Virus record (IMG/VR): IMGVR_UViG_3300037418_003161
Location: 172,420-236,419 of that record
Reading direction: 5' to 3' (one strand)
Source of the DNA: a virus
Taxonomy: Duplodnaviria > Heunggongvirae > Uroviricota > Caudoviricetes
DNA: 64,000 bases
Positions 9,952 through 56,252 of the stretch are shown here, piece by piece. The position numbers and the translations under genes are program-made. Each line of letters begins with the position of its first letter. Position 1 is the first letter of the stretch. The notes beneath the pieces were generated by a model. It was not told where the DNA came from, ran no database searches, and saw nothing but the letters and a program-made list of their open reading frames with translations.

Positions 9952-12900
9952 TTATTCGTTTAATAAATCATCAAGTTCGTCAGCAATCTCATTTAGTTTT
10001 TGTCTGCCCTTGTCCAAATCGAATATGAACCCTTCTTTTTCGTTCTTCATATCCAGTAGTTTTCCCAAACGTTGTTCGCTCAAGGGTGCTGCGGGTTGGG
10101 TTTCTTCTTCTTCCGGTGGAGCTTGCTCACCTCCGGTTGCGGGAGGGGCTGCTGCTCCTGTAGGTGGCGCAGCTTCACCACCACCTGTTTCTTCCGGTGG
10201 AGCTTCTTCTGCACCTCCACCCATATCACCACCCAAGTCAGGTAGGCTCATTGAGCCGCCCCCGCCTCCACCACCACTTGCGCCTCCGGCATCGGCTGAA
10301 TCACCACCCGCTGGATTTTCACCACTGGAATAAAGTTGGTTGATTTTATTAAAGATTCCGGTTTTAATGTCTTTGGAGTTGTTGAGTTCTTCTGCAATTC
10401 CACGCTCCACTTTTTGTTGTTGAAGGTCAAGCTTGACTTCTTCATCACTCATACCCAAGAAGTATTTTTTGGCGAATGTGTGGGACACAGGTGCAATGGA
10501 TTGACCATCGCCCACCGCATCTTTATACAGCAGGATTTTCTCTTTCCATTGTTCAATCTTAAGAAGGTCAGATTGTGTGGAAGGATTGGTAAGACCCAAT
10601 GTGAAATTATCCAACTCATCTTCTAATCCAAGAAGATAAAGGTGGATGATAGCAATTTTATTGAGTTCCTGAATCAGAGATTTTTGAATACGATTGATGG
10701 TACGTGCGAAACGTATATCCATAAGCGATAGACCCTTACCTTCACCAACCACTTCTTCGAAACCCAAGAATGCTTTGGGAATACGAAGTGCAGCCAACAT
10801 CTTCTTTTGGATATACTCAATATCTGCGATTTCTCCCAAATTAGAATTAAAAATATATATACCGCATTGAATACCAAAGGTGTGTGCGTTAGAATAGAGT
10901 TCATTACCATCTACGGTAATAGTTCCGGTATCTTGTTTTTCTTCCAGCCATTCTATCGCAATAATCTTGTGATTAAAGAACTTTCTTCGTTGTGAGATTC
11001 CTTGTTCCTTATCGATATAATATCTCCATGCACGAACATTTTTGTAACCCCTACTTTCAGATTCTTTTACTAACCATTCACGATAGTTTCTAAAGCCACG
11101 TTGTTTCAACATCTTAACAACATGGTTATGCGTAAATTCAGAAAGATTGGAAAGTGGACTACTAATTTCACCATTGATTGTTTTAAACAATTTCAAAAAT
11201 TCCGGGGTATTGTTTAGAACATTTAATGTTAAATCTGCACGTCCGGTCTTCTCAAATTCACGAACGTACCATCGATAAATTTCATCGGAGAAAATGAGCG
11301 TTTGGTTTTTCAGAACCTTTTTTCTGAACTCACTATTTTTCCAATTGTTTTTTGTGCGTTCACTGTGTTGTTGTTTTCTATCGTTAGTAAAAGCTTTTGA
11401 AATCTTTTTGCCTTTTGCCTTCAGATTTTCTTCATTTTTACACCATTCCAACATTGGTTGAATGTTTTCAACGGTTGCATATTGTTTCAATCTTTCAAAG
11501 CTTTCATTGAGTTGTTCTTCATTAAGAGAATTAATGTAATTTTTTAAACCTTCGCTTTGTTTTTTACTGATTTCTTGGTGGAAATTGATATCGGATTTAC
11601 GTTTGTTGTGAAATGTTTCTTGTCCCCTTTTTAGTCTTTCATTTACAGCATTTCTAAAATTTTCGTCATTTGCATATTTTTCTGAATAGGCTTGAGAAGC
11701 AATATGTAAATTATCAGCATGATATTTTAAGTGGTCTGAATAACCCATAAAACATAAATTAGTTGGGTTATTATTAAATCGATTTACATCTTTATGGTGT
11801 ATTACACTAAACGTATTCTCCTCATTCTTTTTGTGAATATATTTCTGTACTAATTTGTGTCTGTAAAATTTAGCAACTTCTTTGTGAACCCATAACCATT
11901 TACCTTTCTCGTTATCCCAAACTTGTTTGTAATCCTTGGAATAATTATTTCTCCTATATAAAACTTCGTTTCTAAGATTTAGTGGCATAAGACTTTCACC
12001 AACAACCAAATCTTTTGCTTCTTTCTTTTCACCTAAACGTGTGAGAAACTTATGGTCGGGTGTTGCGGTCACACTTTCACCATTATCCAAAGTAATTTTA
12101 AGAACTTGCGTATTCTTTCTTGTAACCCCGGCCCAAGTAATCGGCAGAGGAATAAACTTACCCGTTTTTGGGTCACATGAGTAAACCCACAGGTTTCTAT
12201 TTCCTTCGTCCCATTCTTTGATAATATCTTTTAATTCCAATGTCCTTCCATCCAATAGGGGAATTTTGGTATCCAAAGCGATACAAGCTCCCGGCAGTGT
12301 TTCAATCGGAGAAGCCTGAGATGGGTCACGAACCGGGATAAAGAAATCTTGGTCAACCGCCATTTGGTTGTAACGAGTATCCACGTTACCGTTGCGTTGG
12401 TCAGCGATTTGGTCACGCTTAAATCTGTTGGCAACACGCTGAACATATTGTTCCACATCCGAATCATCCATATTTCCAACAAAGACCTTAAACACCCTGC
12501 GCTCCGGCGCACGACTTGTCCGGTAAATCAACATCGCATCTTCGGCCAACAAAAGCTGCTTCCATATCCTGCGGCATTTATCCAACATGGACGTGCCATA
12601 GGGAAGTTTGCGGTCATCCCCCAACAGTCGGAAGTGAGCAATCTCCCAAGGTTGGAAGTCCATGTTTTTATCTTTCCAACGGAATTTGACCTGACGTGCC
12701 GCCAAATCATCCTTGTCTTTGATTTCCACTTTCTGCACCATGTTGGCTGTGGAGTTTTTGTAGGCTTCCCCTTCCAGCCGCTCGATTTCCACGTTGGGGA
12801 GTTGGTAGCAACCAACCACCCCCTTTTCGGGGTCTATTTTTAAATATAAGAAATTATCTCCATATTTGCACATGTTCCGACCCCACATCTGTAAATTGGT

Positions 12901-13335
12901 ATTTACATCCAAGACATTGTTAAACAGGTTAGCAAGTGTATTTTTTATACGTTTTGATTCTGAAAAAATTGAAAGAATGTGTCCCTTCTCACTTGGCGTG
13001 GTGGCTTCCTCTGCATAAATGTCCAAAGCAGCAGAAATTTCCGGGGTATACTCCATTGATTCATAATCGAAATATGCCGATAAACGGGTGGTTTCATAAA
13101 CGGTTGATTTGTTATACAACTCATTATCAATCTTCACCCATTTATCCAGAAGGTATTTGGATTGTTGGAGTTCCAACTTTTTCGTGTCGTACTCCTGTTT
13201 GTTATATGTTCTTAATAATTCCTGTGCATTCAGATTGTACGTGTGTTCAGGCTCTTGGGGTTGCTGTATGGAAGCACCACCCCTCCTCAACATCTTGGTT
13301 AGCTTCTGAAGTACGGTTAAATTGTTTTCAGCCAT
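9952..13335 (-). CDS. Portal protein, T4 gp20-like, interrupted by an intein; Gly/Pro/Ala-rich C-terminal low-complexity segment
   Basis: 1127 aa. N-terminal ~350 aa and the post-insertion segment are portal-like by size and synteny. A ~473 aa insertion begins with Cys in ...SPIETLPGA/CIALDTKIPLLDG (Hint block A). Confidence 0.78.
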   Translation of the reverse strand: MAENNLTVLQKLTKMLRRGGASIQQPQEPEHTYNLNAQELLRTYNKQEYDTKKLELQQSKYLLDKWVKIDNELYNKSTVYETTRLSAYFDYESMEYTPEISAALDIYAEEATTPSEKGHILSIFSESKRIKNTLANLFNNVLDVNTNLQMWGRNMCKYGDNFLYLKIDPEKGVVGCYQLPNVEIERLEGEAYKNSTANMVQKVEIKDKDDLAARQVKFRWKDKNMDFQPWEIAHFRLLGDDRKLPYGTSMLDKCRRIWKQLLLAEDAMLIYRTSRAPERRVFKVFVGNMDDSDVEQYVQRVANRFKRDQIADQRNGNVDTRYNQMAVDQDFFIPVRDPSQASPIETLPGACIALDTKIPLLDGRTLELKDIIKEWDEGNRNLWVYSCDPKTGKFIPLPITWAGVTRKNTQVLKITLDNGESVTATPDHKFLTRLGEKKEAKDLVVGESLMPLNLRNEVLYRRNNYSKDYKQVWDNEKGKWLWVHKEVAKFYRHKLVQKYIHKKNEENTFSVIHHKDVNRFNNNPTNLCFMGYSDHLKYHADNLHIASQAYSEKYANDENFRNAVNERLKRGQETFHNKRKSDINFHQEISKKQSEGLKNYINSLNEEQLNESFERLKQYATVENIQPMLEWCKNEENLKAKGKKISKAFTNDRKQQHSERTKNNWKNSEFRKKVLKNQTLIFSDEIYRWYVREFEKTGRADLTLNVLNNTPEFLKLFKTINGEISSPLSNLSEFTHNHVVKMLKQRGFRNYREWLVKESESRGYKNVRAWRYYIDKEQGISQRRKFFNHKIIAIEWLEEKQDTGTITVDGNELYSNAHTFGIQCGIYIFNSNLGEIADIEYIQKKMLAALRIPKAFLGFEEVVGEGKGLSLMDIRFARTINRIQKSLIQELNKIAIIHLYLLGLEDELDNFTLGLTNPSTQSDLLKIEQWKEKILLYKDAVGDGQSIAPVSHTFAKKYFLGMSDEEVKLDLQQQKVERGIAEELNNSKDIKTGIFNKINQLYSSGENPAGGDSADAGGASGGGGGGGSMSLPDLGGDMGGGAEEAPPEETGGGEAAPPTGAAAPPATGGEQAPPEEEETQPAAPLSEQRLGKLLDMKNEKEGFIFDLDKGRQKLNEIADELDDLLNE
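10867..12285 (-). mobile_element. Intein (Hint domain with embedded HNH endonuclease) within the portal gene
   Basis: N-terminal splice junction Cys codon at 12283-12285 (CIALDTKIPLLDGRT). HNH motif VIHHKDVNRFNNNPTNLCFMGYSDHLKYHADN. C-terminal block ITVDGNELYSNAHTFGIQ/CG resembles Hint block G but ends in Gln (10867-10869) followed by Cys, non-canonical. Boundaries approximate. Confidence 0.6.
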
Positions 13336-31278: not shown

Positions 31279-31357
31279 TGGCGTGTATAGAGCCATCCTG
31301 ATGAGATGGATATTCTTAGCGGTATTGAAAACGTGGGTTCGAATCCCACCACGCCAA
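31279..31357 (+). tRNA. Non-canonical tRNA-like gene (hairpin loop CTGATGA would give anticodon GAT, Ile)
   Basis: Perfect acceptor TGGCGTG/CACGCCA and T-arm GTGGG-TTCGAAT-CCCAC. The body has only one clean hairpin (CCATC-CTGATGA-GATGG) plus 5 nt before and 23 nt after it; no standard D-arm. Confidence 0.35.
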
Positions 31358-31371
31358 CCAAGGGAACAGGT

Positions 31372-31396
31372 AGTGGTTCGACTCCACTCAGGCATA
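31372..31396 (+). ncRNA. Isolated tRNA 3'-half-like element (T-arm AGTGG-TTCGACT-CCACT plus 7 nt)
   Basis: Canonical T-arm with no matching 5' acceptor half within 90 nt upstream. Confidence 0.3.
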
Positions 31397-31444
31397 GATT
31401 CTACGTTTGTAGCATTTGATGGTAGTGCAGTTCCCGCCTTTTAT

Positions 31445-31526
31445 GGCCCCGTAACAGCACCGTCTTCGAAACGGTACGCATTGTAATGGAAGGAAGATGT
31501 GAGTTCGACCCTCACCGGGGCTTCCA
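31445..31526 (+). tRNA. Non-canonical tRNA-like gene with encoded CCA (hairpin loop CTTCGAA would give anticodon TCG, Arg)
   Basis: Acceptor GGCCCCG/CGGGGCT, discriminator T, then CCA. T-arm GTGAG-TTCGACC-CTCAC. Body architecture mirrors 31279-31357: 5 nt, then hairpin ACCGT-CTTCGAA-ACGGT, then 23 nt. Confidence 0.35.
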
Positions 31527-31531
31527 AAGTT

Positions 31532-31556
31532 GTAGGTTCGAGTCCTACTCAGTCTG
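31532..31556 (+). ncRNA. Isolated tRNA 3'-half-like element (T-arm GTAGG-TTCGAGT-CCTAC plus 7 nt)
   Basis: Second T-arm-only element, immediately after the preceding tRNA-like gene and before a T-run. Confidence 0.3.
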
Positions 31557-31580
31557 CGATTTTTTATTTATCTTTGTTCC

Positions 31581-31940
31581 ATGAAAACCATTGTTGAACA
31601 AATGATTGAGGCCGGGTATAGGAAATTTACACCATCCTCATATTATCACGCCAAAGAAGCGTATCAGGCTCGCATCAGGGATGAAGTTGGAACTCGGTAT
31701 TTTATAACTTGTTACATTTACAATTTCAGTGATTTAGCACAGGAGCCACAAGAGGATAGTTACAGCTTTGAGGTTCAGTATGATAGTCACGGAAATCAAA
31801 CATTTGATGTGAGAAGGGGTGGGTGGTTTGGGCCGAATAAGTGGAACCATCCATATTTAACACTCCGGGAAATTGAAGATTTTTTCGGTCTCATTTGGGA
31901 AACAACTGGACGATTGTATTATGAAAAAGATGAATATTAA
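31581..31940 (+). CDS. Hypothetical protein
   Basis: 119 aa; ATG follows the promoter motif TTATTTATCTTTGTTCC. Confidence 0.45.
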   Translation: MKTIVEQMIEAGYRKFTPSSYYHAKEAYQARIRDEVGTRYFITCYIYNFSDLAQEPQEDSYSFEVQYDSHGNQTFDVRRGGWFGPNKWNHPYLTLREIEDFFGLIWETTGRLYYEKDEY

Positions 31941-31950
31941 ATTTATAAAG

Positions 31951-32035
31951 GGGTAGTTGGTCGAGTGGTCGATGGCGGCAGTCTGCAAAACTGTTGGGAG
32001 CAATCCCCGCACAGGTTCGAATCCTGTACTACCCT
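31951..32035 (+). tRNA. tRNA with Cys anticodon GCA and U73 but a class II (long variable arm) body
   Basis: Perfect acceptor GGGTAGT/ACTACCC, Ser-like D-arm GTC-GAGTGGTCGAT-GGC, anticodon stem GCAGT/ACTGT, loop CTGCAAA. 16-nt variable arm GGGA-GCAA-TCCC (GNRA loop). T-arm ACAGG-TTCGAAT-CCTGT, discriminator T. Confidence 0.6.
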
Positions 32036-32036
32036 C

Positions 32037-51770: not shown

Positions 51771-51852
51771 GGACACGTAGCAAAGCGGCAAAGTCGGAAG
51801 ACTGTAAATCTTCTCCCTCCGGGGTTCGTAGGTTCGAGTCCTACCGTGTCCA
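51771..51852 (+). tRNA. tRNA-Tyr (anticodon GTA), class II
   Basis: Acceptor GGACACG/CGTGTCC, anticodon stem GAAGA/TCTTC, loop CTGTAAA, variable arm CCC...GGG, T-arm GTAGG-TTCGAGT-CCTAC. Confidence 0.72.
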
Positions 51853-51950: not shown

Positions 51951-52038
51951 GGGGCTATGGTGTAACTGGCTAAACATCCCATCCTTACAAGATGGAGACG
52001 AGAAGTATTTAATCCCGGTTCGAGTCCGGGTGGCCCTA
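51951..52038 (+). tRNA. tRNA with Val anticodon TAC and an unusually long (18 nt) variable region
   Basis: Acceptor GGGGCTA/TGGCCCT, anticodon stem CCATC/GATGG (perfect), loop CTTACAA, T-arm CCCGG-TTCGAGT-CCGGG. 18 nt (AGACGAGAAGTATTTAAT) lie between the anticodon stem and T-stem with no clear helix. Confidence 0.5.
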
Positions 52039-52085
52039 CGATTGGTTTTTGCACGTTTTAAACTTAATGGAAAAATGTGTTTTAT

Positions 52086-52169
52086 AGGGTAGTAATCGGT
52101 AAATGGAAGCCGTCCACATTTGGGATGTGGGGTCATAGTACGCTGCAAGTTCGAGTCTTGTCTACCCTA
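52086..52169 (+). tRNA. tRNA-Pro (anticodon TGG) with extended 14-nt variable region
   Basis: Acceptor AGGGTAG/CTACCCT, anticodon stem CCACA/TGTGG, loop TTTGGGA, T-arm GCAAG-TTCGAGT-CTTGT, variable GGTCATAGTACGCT. Confidence 0.55.
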
Positions 52170-52248
52170 CGAAAGTGAACTTAAACAGTCAATCGAAGTT
52201 CTCATGGCCTACAGGGTGCGCTATAGATTGACGAACGAGGTGATGTAG

Positions 52249-53832: not shown

Positions 53833-53956
53833 TGTAGGGCTGAGGGTGGCACTCTCAGGGTAGATGCACAACTACCTGAACAAGTGAGTAGTTTAATCGA
53901 TTGCAAGCGATAAATGAGGGGCTTGTTCTGTGGCGGTTCGAATCCGTCCCCTACAA
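53833..53956 (+). ncRNA. 124-nt tRNA-like RNA gene with four hairpins and an 8-nt anticodon-position loop
   Basis: tRNA-like acceptor TGTAGGG/CCCTACA plus discriminator A. T-arm GGCGG-TTCGAAT-CCGTC. Hairpins CTGAG-GGTGGCACT-CTCAG (D position), GGTAG-ATGCACAA-CTACC (anticodon position, would read GCA or a 4-base GCAC), and a ~50-nt extra arm closed by GAACAAG/CTTGTTC at the variable-arm position. Confidence 0.45.
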
Positions 53957-53973
53957 CTTTTAAATCCATTCCT

Positions 53974-56159: not shown

Positions 56160-56247
56160 GGGCGTATGGCGCAAAAGGTAGCGCATCTCACTTTTAATGA
56201 GAGGGGTAGACGTAAGTCCGTTCAGGGTTCGAATCCCTGTGCGCCCA
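56160..56247 (+). tRNA. tRNA-Lys (anticodon TTT) with a 20-nt variable arm
   Basis: Acceptor GGGCGTA/TGCGCCC, D-arm GCGC/GCGC, anticodon stem TCTCA/TGAGA (perfect), loop CTTTTAA, variable GGGGTAGACGTAAGTCCGTT (GAC-GTAA-GTC mini-helix), T-arm CAGGG-TTCGAAT-CCCTG. Confidence 0.6.
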
Positions 56248-56252
56248 CAACA

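What the first reader, a model, noticed from the sequence alone, without database searches (positions are those of the whole stretch)
31279..31556. Two tandem units of [D-arm-poor tRNA-like gene + isolated T-arm 3'-half]
Both tRNA-like genes (31279-31357 and 31445-31526) have a perfect acceptor and T-arm but a body of 5 nt + one 5-bp/7-nt hairpin + 23 nt. The second has an encoded CCA. Each is followed within ~15 nt by an orphan canonical T-arm plus 7 nt. The duplication of this odd architecture argues against random decay. These could be armless tRNAs, tRNA-derived decoys for host anticodon nucleases or tRNA-modifying enzymes, or recombination scars.
Basis: seen in the sequence. Interest (0 to 1): 0.55.

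Follow-up and report, generated by a model that had tools for sequence, protein, structure and literature searches.

The report
Phage tRNAs with a rewired core
The two odd "tRNA-like genes" are an isoleucine and an arginine tRNA from a conserved family, found here only in phage DNA, that keeps every part of a tRNA but strings the D-arm pieces in a different order; I found no report of this layout for bacterial or phage translation.

Summary

**The two genes.** 31279-31360 and 31445-31526 are tRNA-Ile(GAU) and tRNA-Arg(UCG). Both have a canonical acceptor stem, anticodon arm, T arm and encoded CCA, but no D hairpin. They are not decayed genes. I found about 80 distinct relatives in phage and metagenome contigs, none convincing in 185,579 reference bacterial and archaeal genomes, and one among 50,697 GenBank phage records. 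Their anticodons are Ile, Arg, Tyr or CAU.

**The structure, from covariation.**
- A 3-bp helix forms between nucleotides just after U8-A9 and three nucleotides downstream of the anticodon arm.
- A D-loop look-alike (U-A-R..GG-N) follows, then an A-rich linker and the T arm.
- An R15:Y48-like pair covaries: G:C in 45 sequences, A:U in 14, never mixed.
- The base after GG is A in 18 of 18 Arg members (the ArgRS A20 element) and U in 40 of 41 Ile members.

My reading is a tRNA with segments 10-21 and 22-47 swapped, which probably still folds into an L shape and is charged.

**The rest of the finding.** The "tandem unit" idea is not supported. The first orphan T arm belongs to a 78-nt element that holds a whole canonical tRNA in circularly permuted order. 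The second overlaps a terminator-like hairpin. Function in translation is inferred, not shown.

The parts
31279..31360 (+). Unit 1: non-canonical tRNA-Ile(GAU), 79 nt plus encoded CCA (31358-31360)
   Evidence: Rfam tRNA 37.8 bits with the D arm deleted. Family model R3, trained without window sequences, gives 85.8 bits, E 6e-23. A homologue in the 642-kb phage genome record LR756502.1 has compensatory changes and an Ile anticodon.
31289..31291 (+). Unit 1, strand X (AGA) of the 3-bp D-stem-like helix
   Evidence: Pairs with UCU at 31314-31316. The X:Y helix is 94.6-95.8% paired across the family, and all 3 pairs show changes on both sides.
31293..31309 (+). Unit 1 anticodon arm CCAUC-CUGAUGA-GAUGG; anticodon GAU at 31300-31302
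   Evidence: The 5-bp stem covaries. U33 is present in 63 of 63 family members. This copy has G37 where 40 of 41 Ile members have A37.
31314..31316 (+). Unit 1, strand Y (UCU) of the D-stem-like helix
   Evidence: A rule-based extraction gives 96% pairing in register and at most 69% in all 34 shifted registers.
31317..31332 (+). Unit 1 D-loop-like segment UAGCGGU (U13-A14-G15-C16-G18-G19-U20 equivalents), then the linker AUUGAAAA and C31332 (Y48 equivalent)
   Evidence: The UA and GG are invariant. R15:Y48-like covariation is G:C 45, A:U 14, other 4. The base after GG is U in 40 of 41 Ile members.
31333..31349 (+). Unit 1 T arm GUGGG-UUCGAAU-CCCAC
31361..31438 (+). Element A: a complete canonical tRNA body in circularly permuted order. 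Closing stem 31362-31367 / 31430-31435 (anticodon-stem equivalent), variable AGGU, T arm 31372-31388, acceptor-like hairpin 31389-31395 / 31403-31409, UA 31410-31411, D arm 31412-31428
   Evidence: The minimum-free-energy fold and the centroid fold are the same four-way junction. After computational re-permutation, ARAGORN at default settings calls a 73-nt cloverleaf, and of 200 shuffled controls. The weak Rfam YrlA alignment has the same arm order (16 bits). No second example was found in 0.9 Mb of phage tRNA islands.
31445..31526 (+). Unit 2: non-canonical tRNA-Arg(UCG), 79 nt plus encoded CCA (31524-31526). X = 31455-31457 (CAG), anticodon arm 31459-31475 (anticodon 31466-31468), Y = 31481-31483 (UUG), D-loop-like UAAUGGA 31484-31490, U31498 as the Y48 equivalent, T arm 31499-31515
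   Evidence: Rfam tRNA 28.5 bits. R3 gives 63.4 bits, E 3e-16. It carries the A15:U48-type pair and A after GG, like 18 of 18 Arg members.
31532..31555 (+). Element B: lone T arm GUAGG-UUCGAGU-CCUAC plus 7 nt UCAGUCU, with no matching 5' acceptor strand nearby
   Evidence: The T arm is identical to that of the window's tRNA-Tyr at 51828-51844.
31526..31565 (+). Alternative fold over element B: a 17-bp G-U-rich hairpin ending in a U tract (31560-31565), a possible terminator of the tRNA cluster, 16 nt before the ATG of ORF 31581-31940
   Evidence: dG -12.1 kcal/mol, z-score -3.1, 2 of 200 shuffles fold as well. The simple terminator scan did not list it.

Best explanation
**What the two genes are.** 31279-31360 encodes a tRNA-Ile(GAU) and 31445-31526 a tRNA-Arg(UCG). 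Both belong to a conserved family, found here only in phage and metagenome DNA, in which the tRNA core is wired differently.

**Shown by sequence and covariation.**
- The acceptor stem (7 bp), U8-A9, the anticodon arm (5 bp, 7-nt loop, U33, R37) and the T arm are canonical.
- There is no D hairpin.
- Three nucleotides one or two positions after A9 (X) pair with three nucleotides that lie 4-5 nt downstream of the anticodon arm (Y). The anticodon arm is therefore extended by a short helix.
- One more pair, resembling 26:44, sits between that helix and the anticodon stem.
- Directly after Y comes U-A-R-(N)-G-G-N. This reads like positions 13-20 of a normal D loop.
- An A-rich linker then leads to a pyrimidine that covaries with the R (like R15:Y48), and then to the T arm.

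**Inferred.** The order of segments is 1-9 | 22-47 | 10-21 | 48-76 instead of 1-9 | 10-21 | 22-47 | 48-76. The RNA can still build the usual L shape. X:Y would stack on the anticodon stem in place of the D stem. U8:A14 and R15:Y48 would close the core, and GG would dock on the T loop. The tRNAs would be cut out of the cluster transcript like their neighbours, charged by the host IleRS and ArgRS, and used on the ribosome.

**Why the core was rewired is not known.** My best guess is escape from host or rival enzymes that recognise tRNA shape.

**The orphan T arms are separate things.** The first is part of a 78-nt element (31361-31438) that contains all four stems of one ordinary tRNA in circularly permuted order. 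It is most simply the junction of two tandem copies of a lost tRNA, or else a Y-RNA-like tRNA mimic. The second is a tRNA remnant that overlaps a terminator-like hairpin.
For: **A family exists.**
- One DNA pattern found 14 viral contigs, 61 metagenome contigs and only one chance match in 185,579 reference genomes.
- An unrelated T-arm pattern followed by the covariance model added 18 more members.
- Family members score 36-97 bits with model R1. Canonical tRNAs in the same contigs score 30 bits or less.
- Model R3, trained without any window sequence, finds both units at E 6e-23 and E 3e-16.

**The structure is supported by covariation.**
- On 63 distinct sequences, 96.1% of cells pair, against 64% after shuffling and 37-50% in slid registers.
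- The X:Y helix is 95.8% paired. Its pair types include AU 30 / GC 21 / CG 9 at one position and GC 19 / GU 17 / AU 11 / CG 10 at another.
- The result holds without window sequences.
- It also holds with a rule-based extraction that uses no fitted alignment: 96% in register against at most 69% out of register.
- The 26:44-like pair is CG 20, AU 16, GU 14.
- The R15:Y48-like pair is GC 45, AU 14, and never G:U or A:C.

**Decoding and charging signals are kept.**
- All anticodons are Ile GAU/UAU, Arg UCU/UCG/CCU/GCG/ACG, Tyr GUA or CAU.
- The homologue of unit 1 in LR756502.1 keeps an Ile anticodon while its stems change by compensation.
- U33 is present in 63 of 63 members, and the discriminator is A in 41 of 41 Ile members.
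- The base after GG is A in 18 of 18 Arg members and U in 40 of 41 Ile members. A20 is the classic ArgRS identity element; this last point is established knowledge, not tested here.

**Context fits.**
- Both units lie on the same strand as 17 ordinary tRNAs of a T4-like phage.
- The matching codons are used in the window's ORFs: AUU plus AUC at 53 per 1000 codons, CGA plus CGG at 11.6 per 1000.
Against: - There is no expression, processing, aminoacylation or structure-probing data. Function in translation is inferred.
- Thermodynamic folding does not predict the X:Y helix, either for single sequences or with RNAalifold on a MAFFT alignment. Support for it comes from covariation only.
- The helix is just 3 bp. 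5 of 39 members in the rule-based set have one mismatch.
- Several contigs carry a canonical tRNA with the same anticodon next to the rewired one: L001, L004, L014, L040, L061 and L072. The rewired copy is therefore not needed simply to supply that anticodon.
- Unit 1 has G37 where 40 of 41 Ile relatives have A37. This would prevent the t6A37 modification expected for an Ile tRNA.
- Unit 2 has a G1-U72 pair and scores just under Rfam's tRNA threshold.
- Most alignments used for counting were fitted to the model.
- Related sequences are not independent events.
- The window's own phage has no sequenced relatives that differ from it. The two other contigs found are identical.
Confidence: 0.72

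Rival explanations
1. The rewired RNAs are conserved and structured, but they are decoys or regulators rather than translation adaptors. For example, they could act as sponges or bait for host anticodon nucleases, for tRNA-modifying enzymes, or for toxins that act on Ile-, Arg- or Tyr-tRNA. Real decoding would be done by the canonical phage or host tRNAs.
For: - Canonical tRNAs with the same anticodon coexist with rewired ones in six contigs.
- Unit 1 has G37 instead of A37.
- 11 family loci carry a kinase plus tRNA-ligase-type phosphodiesterase protein, which points to conflicts over tRNA damage.
- Phage tRNAs are known to counter tRNA-targeting defences (PMC10264068, PMC11555353, PMC11464382).
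Against: - A decoy for an anticodon nuclease would not need a perfect 7/5 acceptor/T branch or an encoded CCA.
- It would also not need A73 in all Ile members, or an A20 equivalent kept in all Arg members but not in Ile members. These are synthetase and EF-Tu features.
- Acceptor stems differ between Ile and Arg members, as real identity sets do.
Confidence: 0.15
2. The two units are decaying pseudo-tRNAs or recombination scars. On this reading, ordinary tRNA genes lost the D arm and gained junk before the T arm.
For: - Phage tRNA islands do hold fragments. L023 has truncated 5' parts of family members and a duplicated T arm plus 3' strand after a canonical tRNA-Arg.
- Homing endonuclease genes (HNH, Endonuclease VII, NUMOD3) are the most recurrent proteins in the family loci.
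Against: - About 80 distinct sequences from many contigs keep the same architecture, with compensatory changes in all four helices and in a tertiary-type pair.
- Unit 1 has a unique but fully paired X:Y combination, AGA/UCU.
- The "junk" contains invariant UA and GG and an identity-linked base.
Confidence: 0.03
3. The units are ordinary cloverleaf tRNAs that were read with the wrong boundaries. This is the alternative that ARAGORN gives for unit 1 at relaxed settings: a 3-bp D stem UAG/CUG, the anticodon stem UGAGA/UCUUA, and the loop UGGAUAU.
For: ARAGORN with -ps80 and in -mt mode draws this cloverleaf, also with anticodon GAU.
Against: - Across 63 distinct relatives the alternative D stem pairs in 32% of cells and the alternative anticodon stem in 49-69% of cells. 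The model proposed here pairs in 95-97%.
- The alternative puts G at position 33.
- It fails outright in the LR756502.1 homologue.
Confidence: 0.02
4. For the orphan T arms only: element A is a functional, circularly permuted tRNA mimic. It would be set free when RNase P cuts at the 5' end of unit 2 and the 3' end of unit 1 is trimmed. It has the same arm order as bacterial Y RNAs of the YrlA type. The alternative is that it is a neutral scar left by two tandem tRNA copies.
For: - All four stems of a single tRNA are present and complementary: acceptor 6 of 7 pairs, anticodon stem 5-6 pairs, an intact D arm with GG, and an intact T arm.
- The element fills the space between two tRNA genes.
- The arm order T arm, acceptor-like stem, D arm is that described for YrlA (PMC4201824). 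The Rfam YrlA model aligns to it in that order.
Against: - The YrlA score is 16 bits against a gathering score of 69.
- No Ro60/TROVE protein was found among the window's ORFs that were scanned, which include all of 300 aa or more.
- No second example was found in 0.9 Mb of phage tRNA islands.
- The fold energy is not unusual (z-score -0.8 to -1.1).
- The junction of any two tandem copies of one tRNA has this form by construction.
- The outer halves could not be found: the upstream similarity is not significant.
Confidence: 0.3

Closest known systems
Canonical bacterial and phage elongator tRNA (Rfam RF00005)
   Same: - 7-bp acceptor stem, U8, anticodon arm with U33 and R37, and a 5-bp T stem with a UUCRANY loop.
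- Discriminator base and CCA.
- Equivalents of A14, R15:Y48, G18-G19 and position 20.
- Located inside a phage tRNA cluster.
   Different: - There is no D hairpin.
- The 5' strand of the D stem and the D loop lie after the anticodon arm, inside what would be the variable region.
- The D-stem equivalent has 3 bp and encloses the anticodon arm.
- ARAGORN at default settings misses both units. Rfam aligns them only by deleting the D arm.
D-arm-lacking mitochondrial tRNAs (for example metazoan mt-tRNA-Ser(AGY) and nematode mt-tRNAs; reviewed in PMC7609411)
   Same: The D hairpin is absent, yet the RNA is presumed to work as an adaptor.
   Different: - The mitochondrial forms replace the D arm with a short, flexible connector. 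They usually lose the D-loop/T-loop contact and need adapted partner proteins.
- Here the D-loop sequence, the GG, the 15:48-type pair and a fully canonical T arm are all kept, and the total length is 79-83 nt.
- The setting is bacterial translation. ARAGORN's mitochondrial mode reports no D-replacement-loop tRNA here.
Irregular tRNAs of bacteria and phages: (8/4) and (9/3) allo-tRNAs, and (8/4) tRNA-His and tRNA-Ser in phage tRNA clusters (PMC5389517)
   Same: They are non-standard tRNA architectures found by mining metagenomes, encoded in phage tRNA clusters next to ordinary tRNAs.
   Different: Those tRNAs change the lengths of the acceptor and T stems but keep the cloverleaf order. Here the stem lengths are standard and the order of segments is changed.
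Circularly permuted tRNA genes of the red alga Cyanidioschyzon merolae
   Same: The 3' half lies upstream of the 5' half, as in element A. Both cases involve the idea of permutation.
   Different: - In the alga the gene is permuted, but the mature tRNA is made canonical by circularisation and re-cutting with the eukaryotic/archaeal splicing machinery.
- In units 1 and 2 an internal segment is swapped, and no simple cut-and-join step would restore the normal order.
- Bacteria lack that splicing endonuclease.
YrlA-type bacterial Y RNAs (Rfam RF02553; PMC4201824)
   Same: This comparison concerns element A only. The module is tRNA-like, with arm order (variable) - T arm - acceptor-like stem-loop - D arm, closed by a stem that stands for the anticodon stem.
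   Different: - The score is 16 bits against a gathering score of 69.
- There is no Ro-binding helix and no Ro60 gene nearby.
- Element A is a near-perfect ordinary tRNA body rather than a diverged mimic.
Phage tRNAs that escape tRNA-targeting defences (PMC10264068, PMC11555353, PMC11464382)
   Same: These are phage-encoded copies of tRNAs the host already has, altered so that host nucleases do not recognise them. This is the selective logic I propose for the rewiring.
   Different: The known cases differ by point changes in the anticodon stem-loop. Nothing here shows that the rewired core confers resistance.

Membership tests
tRNA (functional class; Rfam RF00005) | Score at or above the Rfam gathering threshold (29 bits) | tested here: inconclusive
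   Unit 1 scores 37.8 bits and passes. Unit 2 scores 28.5 bits, just below the threshold. Other family members score 33-40 bits.
tRNA (functional class; Rfam RF00005) | 7-bp acceptor stem, 5-bp T stem with a T loop, and a 5-bp anticodon stem with a 7-nt loop, U33 and a purine at 37 | tested here: met
   Covariation is seen in all three helices.
tRNA (functional class; Rfam RF00005) | D arm as a hairpin between positions 10 and 25 (cloverleaf order) | tested here: not met
   Rfam deletes the D arm, leaving 4 nt instead of 15. The only cloverleaf alternative fails across the relatives.
tRNA (functional class; Rfam RF00005) | Core tertiary signature: U8, A14, R15:Y48, G18-G19 | tested here: met
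   These are met at the sequence level and in a displaced position. UA and GG are invariant, and 15:48-like covariation is GC 45 / AU 14. Whether they form the same contacts in three dimensions cannot be tested here.
tRNA (functional class; Rfam RF00005) | Aminoacylation and use on the ribosome | not testable with these tools
   Only indirect signs are available: an A20 equivalent in 18 of 18 Arg members, A73 in 41 of 41 Ile members, and an encoded CCA.
Rewired-core phage tRNA family defined here (models R1 and R3) | Match to a covariance model built from members outside the window, well above canonical tRNAs | tested here: met
   85.8 and 63.4 bits, against 27.1 bits or less for the 17 ordinary tRNAs of the window.
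Rewired-core phage tRNA family defined here (models R1 and R3) | X:Y helix around the anticodon arm, followed by U-A-R..GG-N and a Y48-like base | tested here: met
   Unit 1 has AGA/UCU, UAGCGGU and C. Unit 2 has CAG/UUG, UAAUGGA and U.
Mitochondrial-type D-armless tRNA | D arm replaced by a short connector loop, with loss of the D-loop/T-loop interaction elements | tested here: not met
   ARAGORN in -mt mode reports 0 D-replacement-loop tRNAs. The GG and the canonical T loop are retained.
YrlA / bacterial Y RNA (element A only) | Rfam RF02553 gathering score (69 bits) | tested here: not met
   16.0 bits for 31350-31453 and 18.7 bits for 31502-31603.
YrlA / bacterial Y RNA (element A only) | Encoded next to a Ro60 (TROVE) gene (PMC4201824) | tested here: not met
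   No TROVE hit in any of the 29 window ORFs scanned with Pfam, which include every ORF of 300 aa or more. The rest of the genome is not in the window.
YrlA / bacterial Y RNA (element A only) | tRNA-like module with arm order T arm, acceptor-like stem-loop, D arm | tested here: met
Permuted tRNA gene (C. merolae type; element A only) | 3' half upstream of the 5' half of one and the same tRNA | tested here: met
   The re-permuted sequence is called a 73-nt cloverleaf.
Permuted tRNA gene (C. merolae type; element A only) | Maturation by circularisation at a bulge-helix-bulge motif to give a normal tRNA with an anticodon loop | not testable with these tools
   No anticodon loop can be formed from the flanks, which are CCA-A upstream and GCCUUUUAU downstream. 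Bacteria are not known to have the enzyme; this last point is established knowledge.

The most novel reading that the evidence does not exclude
Phages of environmental bacteria use a family of tRNAs (Ile, Arg, Tyr and a CAU species) whose mature form has two internal segments swapped. On this reading they are charged by host synthetases and work on bacterial ribosomes. The swap is kept by selection because it makes them invisible to host or rival-phage enzymes that recognise the normal D-arm geometry. The permuted tRNA body between the two genes (element A) would be released as a tRNA mimic with an open anticodon loop that takes part in the same conflict.
Probability: 0.25. Interest if true: 0.9.

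Novelty: new variant of a known kind. Interest (0 to 1): 0.8.

Why it matters
**Against the textbook.** The cloverleaf order of tRNA is usually treated as universal outside animal mitochondria. [quoted passage not shown] A natural family that keeps the parts but changes their order would be a new answer to a basic question: how much of the tRNA fold is chain topology, and how much is three-dimensional shape?

**What it could be used for if the RNAs are active.**
- They are ready-made test objects for the recognition rules of RNase P, the CCA-adding enzyme, the modification enzymes, synthetases, EF-Tu and the ribosome.
- They are candidate scaffolds for orthogonal tRNAs.

**Annotation.** Standard tRNA finders miss or under-score these genes. 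ARAGORN finds neither unit, and Rfam scores them at 28-40 bits. The tRNA sets of uncultured phages are therefore under-counted for Ile, Arg and Tyr.

**Defence.** If the rewiring is an escape from tRNA-targeting defence, it extends a fast-moving field from point mutations to whole-fold changes.

Tried and rejected
1. **Close relatives of this phage.** The neighbouring 119-aa protein has no relative in viral contigs. The only contigs that encode it are identical to the window. The window's own locus therefore offers no comparative data.
2. **A 19-nt pattern from the D arm of element A.** It hit only coding sequence by chance.
3. **Tandem duplication of [unit + T arm].** The 3' flanks of the two orphan T arms are no more alike than shuffles: 1075 of 2000 shuffles score as high.
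4. **A decayed 5' half of the element A tRNA upstream of unit 1**, which would mean the units sit inside a split tRNA. The similarity is not significant: score 19, reached by 506 of 3000 shuffles, with higher scores elsewhere in the window.
5. **Element B as the missing 3' half for the 5' half in element A.** It has no anticodon-stem strand, and the acceptor strands pair poorly (read directly from the sequence).
6. **A recurrent class of permuted tRNA elements.** A single-sequence model of element A found nothing above ordinary tRNA-tRNA junctions in 0.9 Mb. A brute-force ARAGORN re-permutation test proved unspecific, calling 18 of 195 T arms.
7. **YrlA or Ro60.** Rejected; see the membership test.
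8. **The ARAGORN relaxed cloverleaf for unit 1** and its "tRNA-Ser(cga)" and "mtRNA-Arg" calls around unit 2. These were rejected as not conserved or poorly paired.
9. **RNAalifold's invariant GCG/CGU pairing.** It would break the covarying T stem, and it fails in the UAAAGG and UAAGGG variants.
10. **A weak hairpin AUAUU/GGUAU in unit 1.** It is not conserved.
11. **Annotated examples in GenBank phages or in the literature.** The only record is the unannotated LR756502.1. Eight literature searches found no description.
12. **Pfam and PHROGs on the flanking small ORFs.** No hits.
Full report
**1.

The sequence contains two tRNA-sized genes on the + strand.

- Unit 2, 31445-31523: GGCCCCG UA ACAGC ACCGU-CUUCGAA-ACGGU (23 nt) GUGAG-UUCGACC-CUCAC CGGGGCU U. 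CCA follows at 31524-31526.

ARAGORN at default settings reports 17 tRNAs in the window, all on the + strand, but neither unit. Rfam's tRNA model scores unit 1 at 37.8 bits and unit 2 at 28.5 bits, against a gathering score of 29. In both alignments the D arm is deleted and 20 nt are inserted before the T arm. Two T arms outside any tRNA lie at 31372-31388 and 31532-31548.

**2. The units are members of a conserved family**

A distant BLAST of the region against 50,697 GenBank phage records gave one real hit, the unannotated 642-kb uncultured phage genome record LR756502.1.
- That homologue has compensatory changes in the acceptor stem (GGCGUG/CACGCC to GGCGAG/CUCGCC) and in the hairpin (CCAUC/GAUGG to GCAUC/GAUGC).
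- Its loop reads CUUAUAA, so its anticodon is also Ile: UAU instead of GAU.

A pattern taken from the shared 3' part (TAGCGG N3-4 TGAAAACGTGGGTTC) gave these results:
- 14 viral contigs and 61 metagenome contigs.
- One match in one genome for each of 185,579 bacterial and archaeal species. That match has no T arm and is a chance hit.

A covariance model (R1) built from 11 sequences separates the family from ordinary tRNAs. Members score 36-97 bits, and canonical tRNAs in the same contigs score 30 bits or less. A second entry point, a T-arm pattern unrelated to the first, added 18 more members from other contigs.

To remove circularity I rebuilt the model from 58 non-window members (R3). It finds unit 1 at 85.8 bits (E 6e-23) and unit 2 at 63.4 bits (E 3e-16). 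The best ordinary tRNA of the window scores 27.1 bits.

**3. What the family looks like**

Every member has, in this order:
1. A 7-bp acceptor stem.
2. U8-A9.
3. One or two nucleotides.
4. Three nucleotides, here called X.
5. One nucleotide.
6. A 5-bp stem with a 7-nt loop of the form Y-U-NNN-R-A.
7. Four or five nucleotides.
8. Three nucleotides, here called Y.
9. U-A-R-(0-3 nt)-G-G-N.
10. An A-rich linker ending in a pyrimidine.
11. A canonical T arm, the acceptor 3' strand and the discriminator.

*X pairs with Y.*
- I located X only from the hairpin and Y only from the UAR..GG motif. With that rule, 96% of cells pair in register, and at most 69% pair in any of 34 shifted registers.
- The observed combinations include AGA/UCU (the window), CAG/CUG, CAG/UUG, CGA/UCG, CCC/GGG, CCG/CGG, CAC/GUG, CGG/CCG, CGC/GCG, CUC/GAG and ACC/GGU.

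*Pair counts on the model-fitted alignment of 63 distinct sequences.*
- 96.1% of cells are paired, against 64% after shuffling and 37-50% in slid registers.
- All three X:Y pairs show changes on both sides.
- The same holds for the alignment without window sequences.

*Three further signals came out of the alignment.*
- The nucleotide between X and the anticodon stem pairs with the second nucleotide after that stem: CG 20, AU 16, GU 14. This resembles 26:44.
- The R of U-A-R covaries perfectly with the pyrimidine before the T stem. It is G:C in 45 sequences and A:U in 14. The only other combination is G:A, in the four Tyr-type sequences. Unit 1 is G:C and unit 2 is A:U. This is the behaviour of the R15:Y48 pair of normal tRNAs.
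- The base after GG is A in 18 of 18 Arg members, U in 40 of 41 Ile members, and A in 4 of 4 Tyr members.

*Competing structures fail.*
- The cloverleaf that ARAGORN proposes for unit 1 at relaxed settings fails across the family. Its D stem pairs in 32% of cells and its anticodon stem in 49-69%.
- RNAalifold on a plain MAFFT alignment recovers the acceptor stem and the anticodon stem. It does not recover X:Y, and instead proposes an invariant GCG/CGU pairing that would break the covarying T stem.
- X:Y therefore rests on covariation, not on predicted energy. I count this as evidence against.

**4. How I read the structure (inference)**

Y-U-A-R-N-G-G-N is what positions 10-20 of a normal tRNA look like: the 5' strand of the D stem, then A14, R15, G18, G19 and N20. 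X leads directly into the 5' strand of the anticodon stem, as positions 23-25 do in a normal tRNA.

The family therefore has all the pieces of the D domain, but the chain visits them in the order 1-9 | 22-47 | 10-21 | 48-76. In a normal L shape the D stem stacks on the anticodon stem, and the D loop reaches the T loop. Here the stack would be a continuous hairpin made of:
- X:Y, 3 bp;
- a bulge;
- the 26:44-like pair;
- the anticodon stem, 5 bp.

That gives about the normal length. The displaced D loop can still give U8:A14, R15:Y48 and the contact between GG and the T loop. The A-rich linker would bring the chain back to the T stem.

Such an arrangement could arise by duplication of the internal region followed by loss of the outer copies. 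The Tyr-type members (91-95 nt) carry an extra long-range stem (CUGG...CCAG) around Y and the D-loop-like segment. This fits the displaced segment lying inside the variable arm of a class II tRNA. I did not analyse that further.

**5. Signs that they are real adaptors**

- The anticodons are restricted to Ile GAU/UAU, Arg UCU/UCG/CCU/GCG/ACG, Tyr GUA and one CAU.
- U33 is invariant. Position 37 is a purine.
- All 41 distinct Ile members have discriminator A.
- A20 is the best known identity element for bacterial ArgRS (established knowledge). It is kept exactly in the Arg members and not in the Ile members.
- Both window genes have an encoded CCA and lie in a cluster of same-strand tRNAs.
- The phage is T4-like, with a Gp23 capsid protein, a Gp20 portal protein containing an intein, and a T4-type terminase.
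- The phage's ORFs use the codons these tRNAs would read.

Points against a simple supply role:
- Six contigs carry a canonical tRNA with the same anticodon beside the rewired one.
- Unit 1 has G37 where its relatives have A37.

**6. Distribution and context**

The family was found only in phage and metagenome contigs, which range from a few kb to 315 kb and 642 kb. No cultured phage in GenBank has it.

The most recurrent proteins in the family loci are:
- HNH, Endonuclease VII and NUMOD3-type homing endonucleases;
- in 11 loci, a protein combining a P-loop kinase with a tRNA-ligase-type cyclic phosphodiesterase domain, which is an RNA-end-healing enzyme. That protein is not in the window.

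Fragments of family members and duplicated 3' ends of tRNAs occur in at least one such island, L023.

**7. The orphan T arms**

*Element A, 31361-31438.* It fills the space between the two units. Its minimum-free-energy fold and its centroid fold are the same four-way junction:
- closing stem GGGAAC/GUUCCC;
- the T arm;
- a hairpin CAGGC.U...A.GUUUG;
- UA;
- a D arm GCAU-UUGAUGGUA-GUGC.

These are the four stems of one ordinary tRNA in circularly permuted order, opened in the anticodon loop and closed at the acceptor end by a 7-nt loop. I joined the 5' half (31403-31434), an artificial 7-nt loop and the 3' half (31363-31396). ARAGORN at default settings then calls a 73-nt cloverleaf, and it calls none of 200 shuffled controls.

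That ARAGORN test alone is weak, because re-permuting unrelated neighbours also gives some calls. The stronger argument is that both inter-half stems are complementary: acceptor 6 of 7 pairs, anticodon stem 5-6 pairs.

This is the arm order of YrlA-type Y RNAs (PMC4201824). However:
- the Rfam score is 16 bits against 69;
- no Ro60 gene is among the scanned window ORFs;
- no second such element exists in 0.9 Mb of phage tRNA islands.

The junction of two tandem copies of one tRNA has this form by construction, so a scar is the more economical reading. I could not find the missing outer halves.

*Element B.* It is a lone T arm, identical to the T arm of the window's tRNA-Tyr, followed by 7 nt with no partner strand. 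The same stretch can fold into a 17-bp G-U-rich hairpin that runs into a U tract, with a z-score of -3.1. It sits 16 nt before the next ORF and may end the cluster transcript.

The flanks of the two orphan T arms are not significantly alike. Relatives of unit 1 elsewhere are not followed by such arms.

**8. Comparison with what is known, and novelty**

The closest known things are:
- ordinary tRNAs, which have the same parts in a different order;
- D-armless mitochondrial tRNAs, which have really lost the parts;
- the (8/4) and (9/3) irregular tRNAs of bacteria and phages, which have changed stem lengths but the normal order (PMC5389517);
- permuted tRNA genes of a red alga, where the gene is permuted but the mature tRNA is normal (from memory).

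Eight full-text searches found no description of a phage or bacterial tRNA without a D hairpin or with displaced D segments.
- A review of non-canonical tRNAs does not mention phages (PMC7609411).
- A 2024 paper states that all known bacterial tRNAs are cloverleaves (PMC11551756).
- A catalogue of 10,006 candidate viral RNA structures mentions some tRNA-like motifs without this architecture (PMC10690425).

The library does not cover subscription journals, so prior description cannot be excluded.

**9. Limits**

- Nothing here shows expression, processing, charging or three-dimensional structure.
- Most pair counts use alignments fitted to the proposed structure, and the sequences are related to each other. 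The register test and the model trained without window sequences reduce these concerns but do not remove them.
- The reason for the rewiring is a guess.

Noticed in passing
window 53833-53957 (+): A 124-nt tRNA-like element that neither ARAGORN nor Rfam reports. It has an 8-bp acceptor-like stem UUGUAGGG/CCCUACAA and a canonical T arm (53932-53948) that abuts the 3' strand. Its 85-nt body folds into three hairpins: one in the D-arm position, one with an 8-nt loop in the anticodon position, and a long arm in the variable position. The fold energy is -47.6 kcal/mol (z-score -3.4, 0 of 200 shuffles as good). It recalls the stable tRNA-like RNAs of the T4 tRNA region; that comparison is from memory. 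An exact 28-nt pattern found no relative in viral contigs.
   Followed up: partly
window 31951-32036, 51951-52039, 52086-52170, 56160-56248 (+): Four otherwise good tRNAs that normally have a short variable loop carry a 12-18-nt variable region, partly as a stem. They are Cys-GCA (86 nt), Val-UAC (89 nt), Pro-UGG (85 nt) and Lys-UUU (89 nt). Their Rfam scores are 45-63 bits. This phage seems to tolerate or favour enlarged variable regions in general.
   Followed up: no
L023 4518-4965 (contig Ga0210014_1000006, 315 kb): An array of family tRNAs with truncated 5' parts. One has its acceptor 5' strand 45 nt upstream of a second, non-matching one. A canonical tRNA-Arg(ACG) follows, and after it comes a duplicated T arm plus 3' strand. 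This is direct evidence that tRNA fragments are generated in these islands.
   Followed up: partly
L060 1820-1914, L036 2760-2854, L039 502-596, L018 418-512, L016 1420-1514, L051 8876-8966: tRNA-Tyr(GUA) versions of the rewired family, 91-95 nt long. An extra long-range stem (CUGG...CCAG, or CUGAAG...CUUCCAG in L051) encloses strand Y and the D-loop-like segment. This would make a pseudoknot with X:Y.
   Followed up: partly
L008 7166-7215; decayed versions in L002 and L006 just after the Ile gene: A 48-nt mini tRNA-like element: a 6-7-bp acceptor stem, a D-loop-like GUAGUUGGUCACAU and a T arm, with no anticodon arm at all. It lies directly after a rewired tRNA-Ile.
   Followed up: no
L072 and 10 other family loci (representative ORF L072, minus strand, 317 aa): A recurrent protein that combines a P-loop kinase (AAA_33) with a tRNA-ligase-type cyclic phosphodiesterase domain. 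This is an RNA-end-healing enzyme, encoded in the tRNA islands that carry rewired tRNAs. It is absent from this window.
   Followed up: partly
window 9952-13335 (-): The T4-type portal protein (Gp20) is 1127 aa long and contains an intein splicing domain.
   Followed up: no
L162 1441-1517: A rewired family member with anticodon CAU and discriminator A. It is either a Met tRNA or an Ile tRNA that would need lysidine modification.
   Followed up: no
L001 3066-3160 (LR756502.1): Directly after the rewired tRNA-Ile lies a Cys(GCA)-like tRNA with an aberrant D region and two G-U pairs in the acceptor stem. Neither ARAGORN nor Rfam (E below 1) reports it.
   Followed up: no
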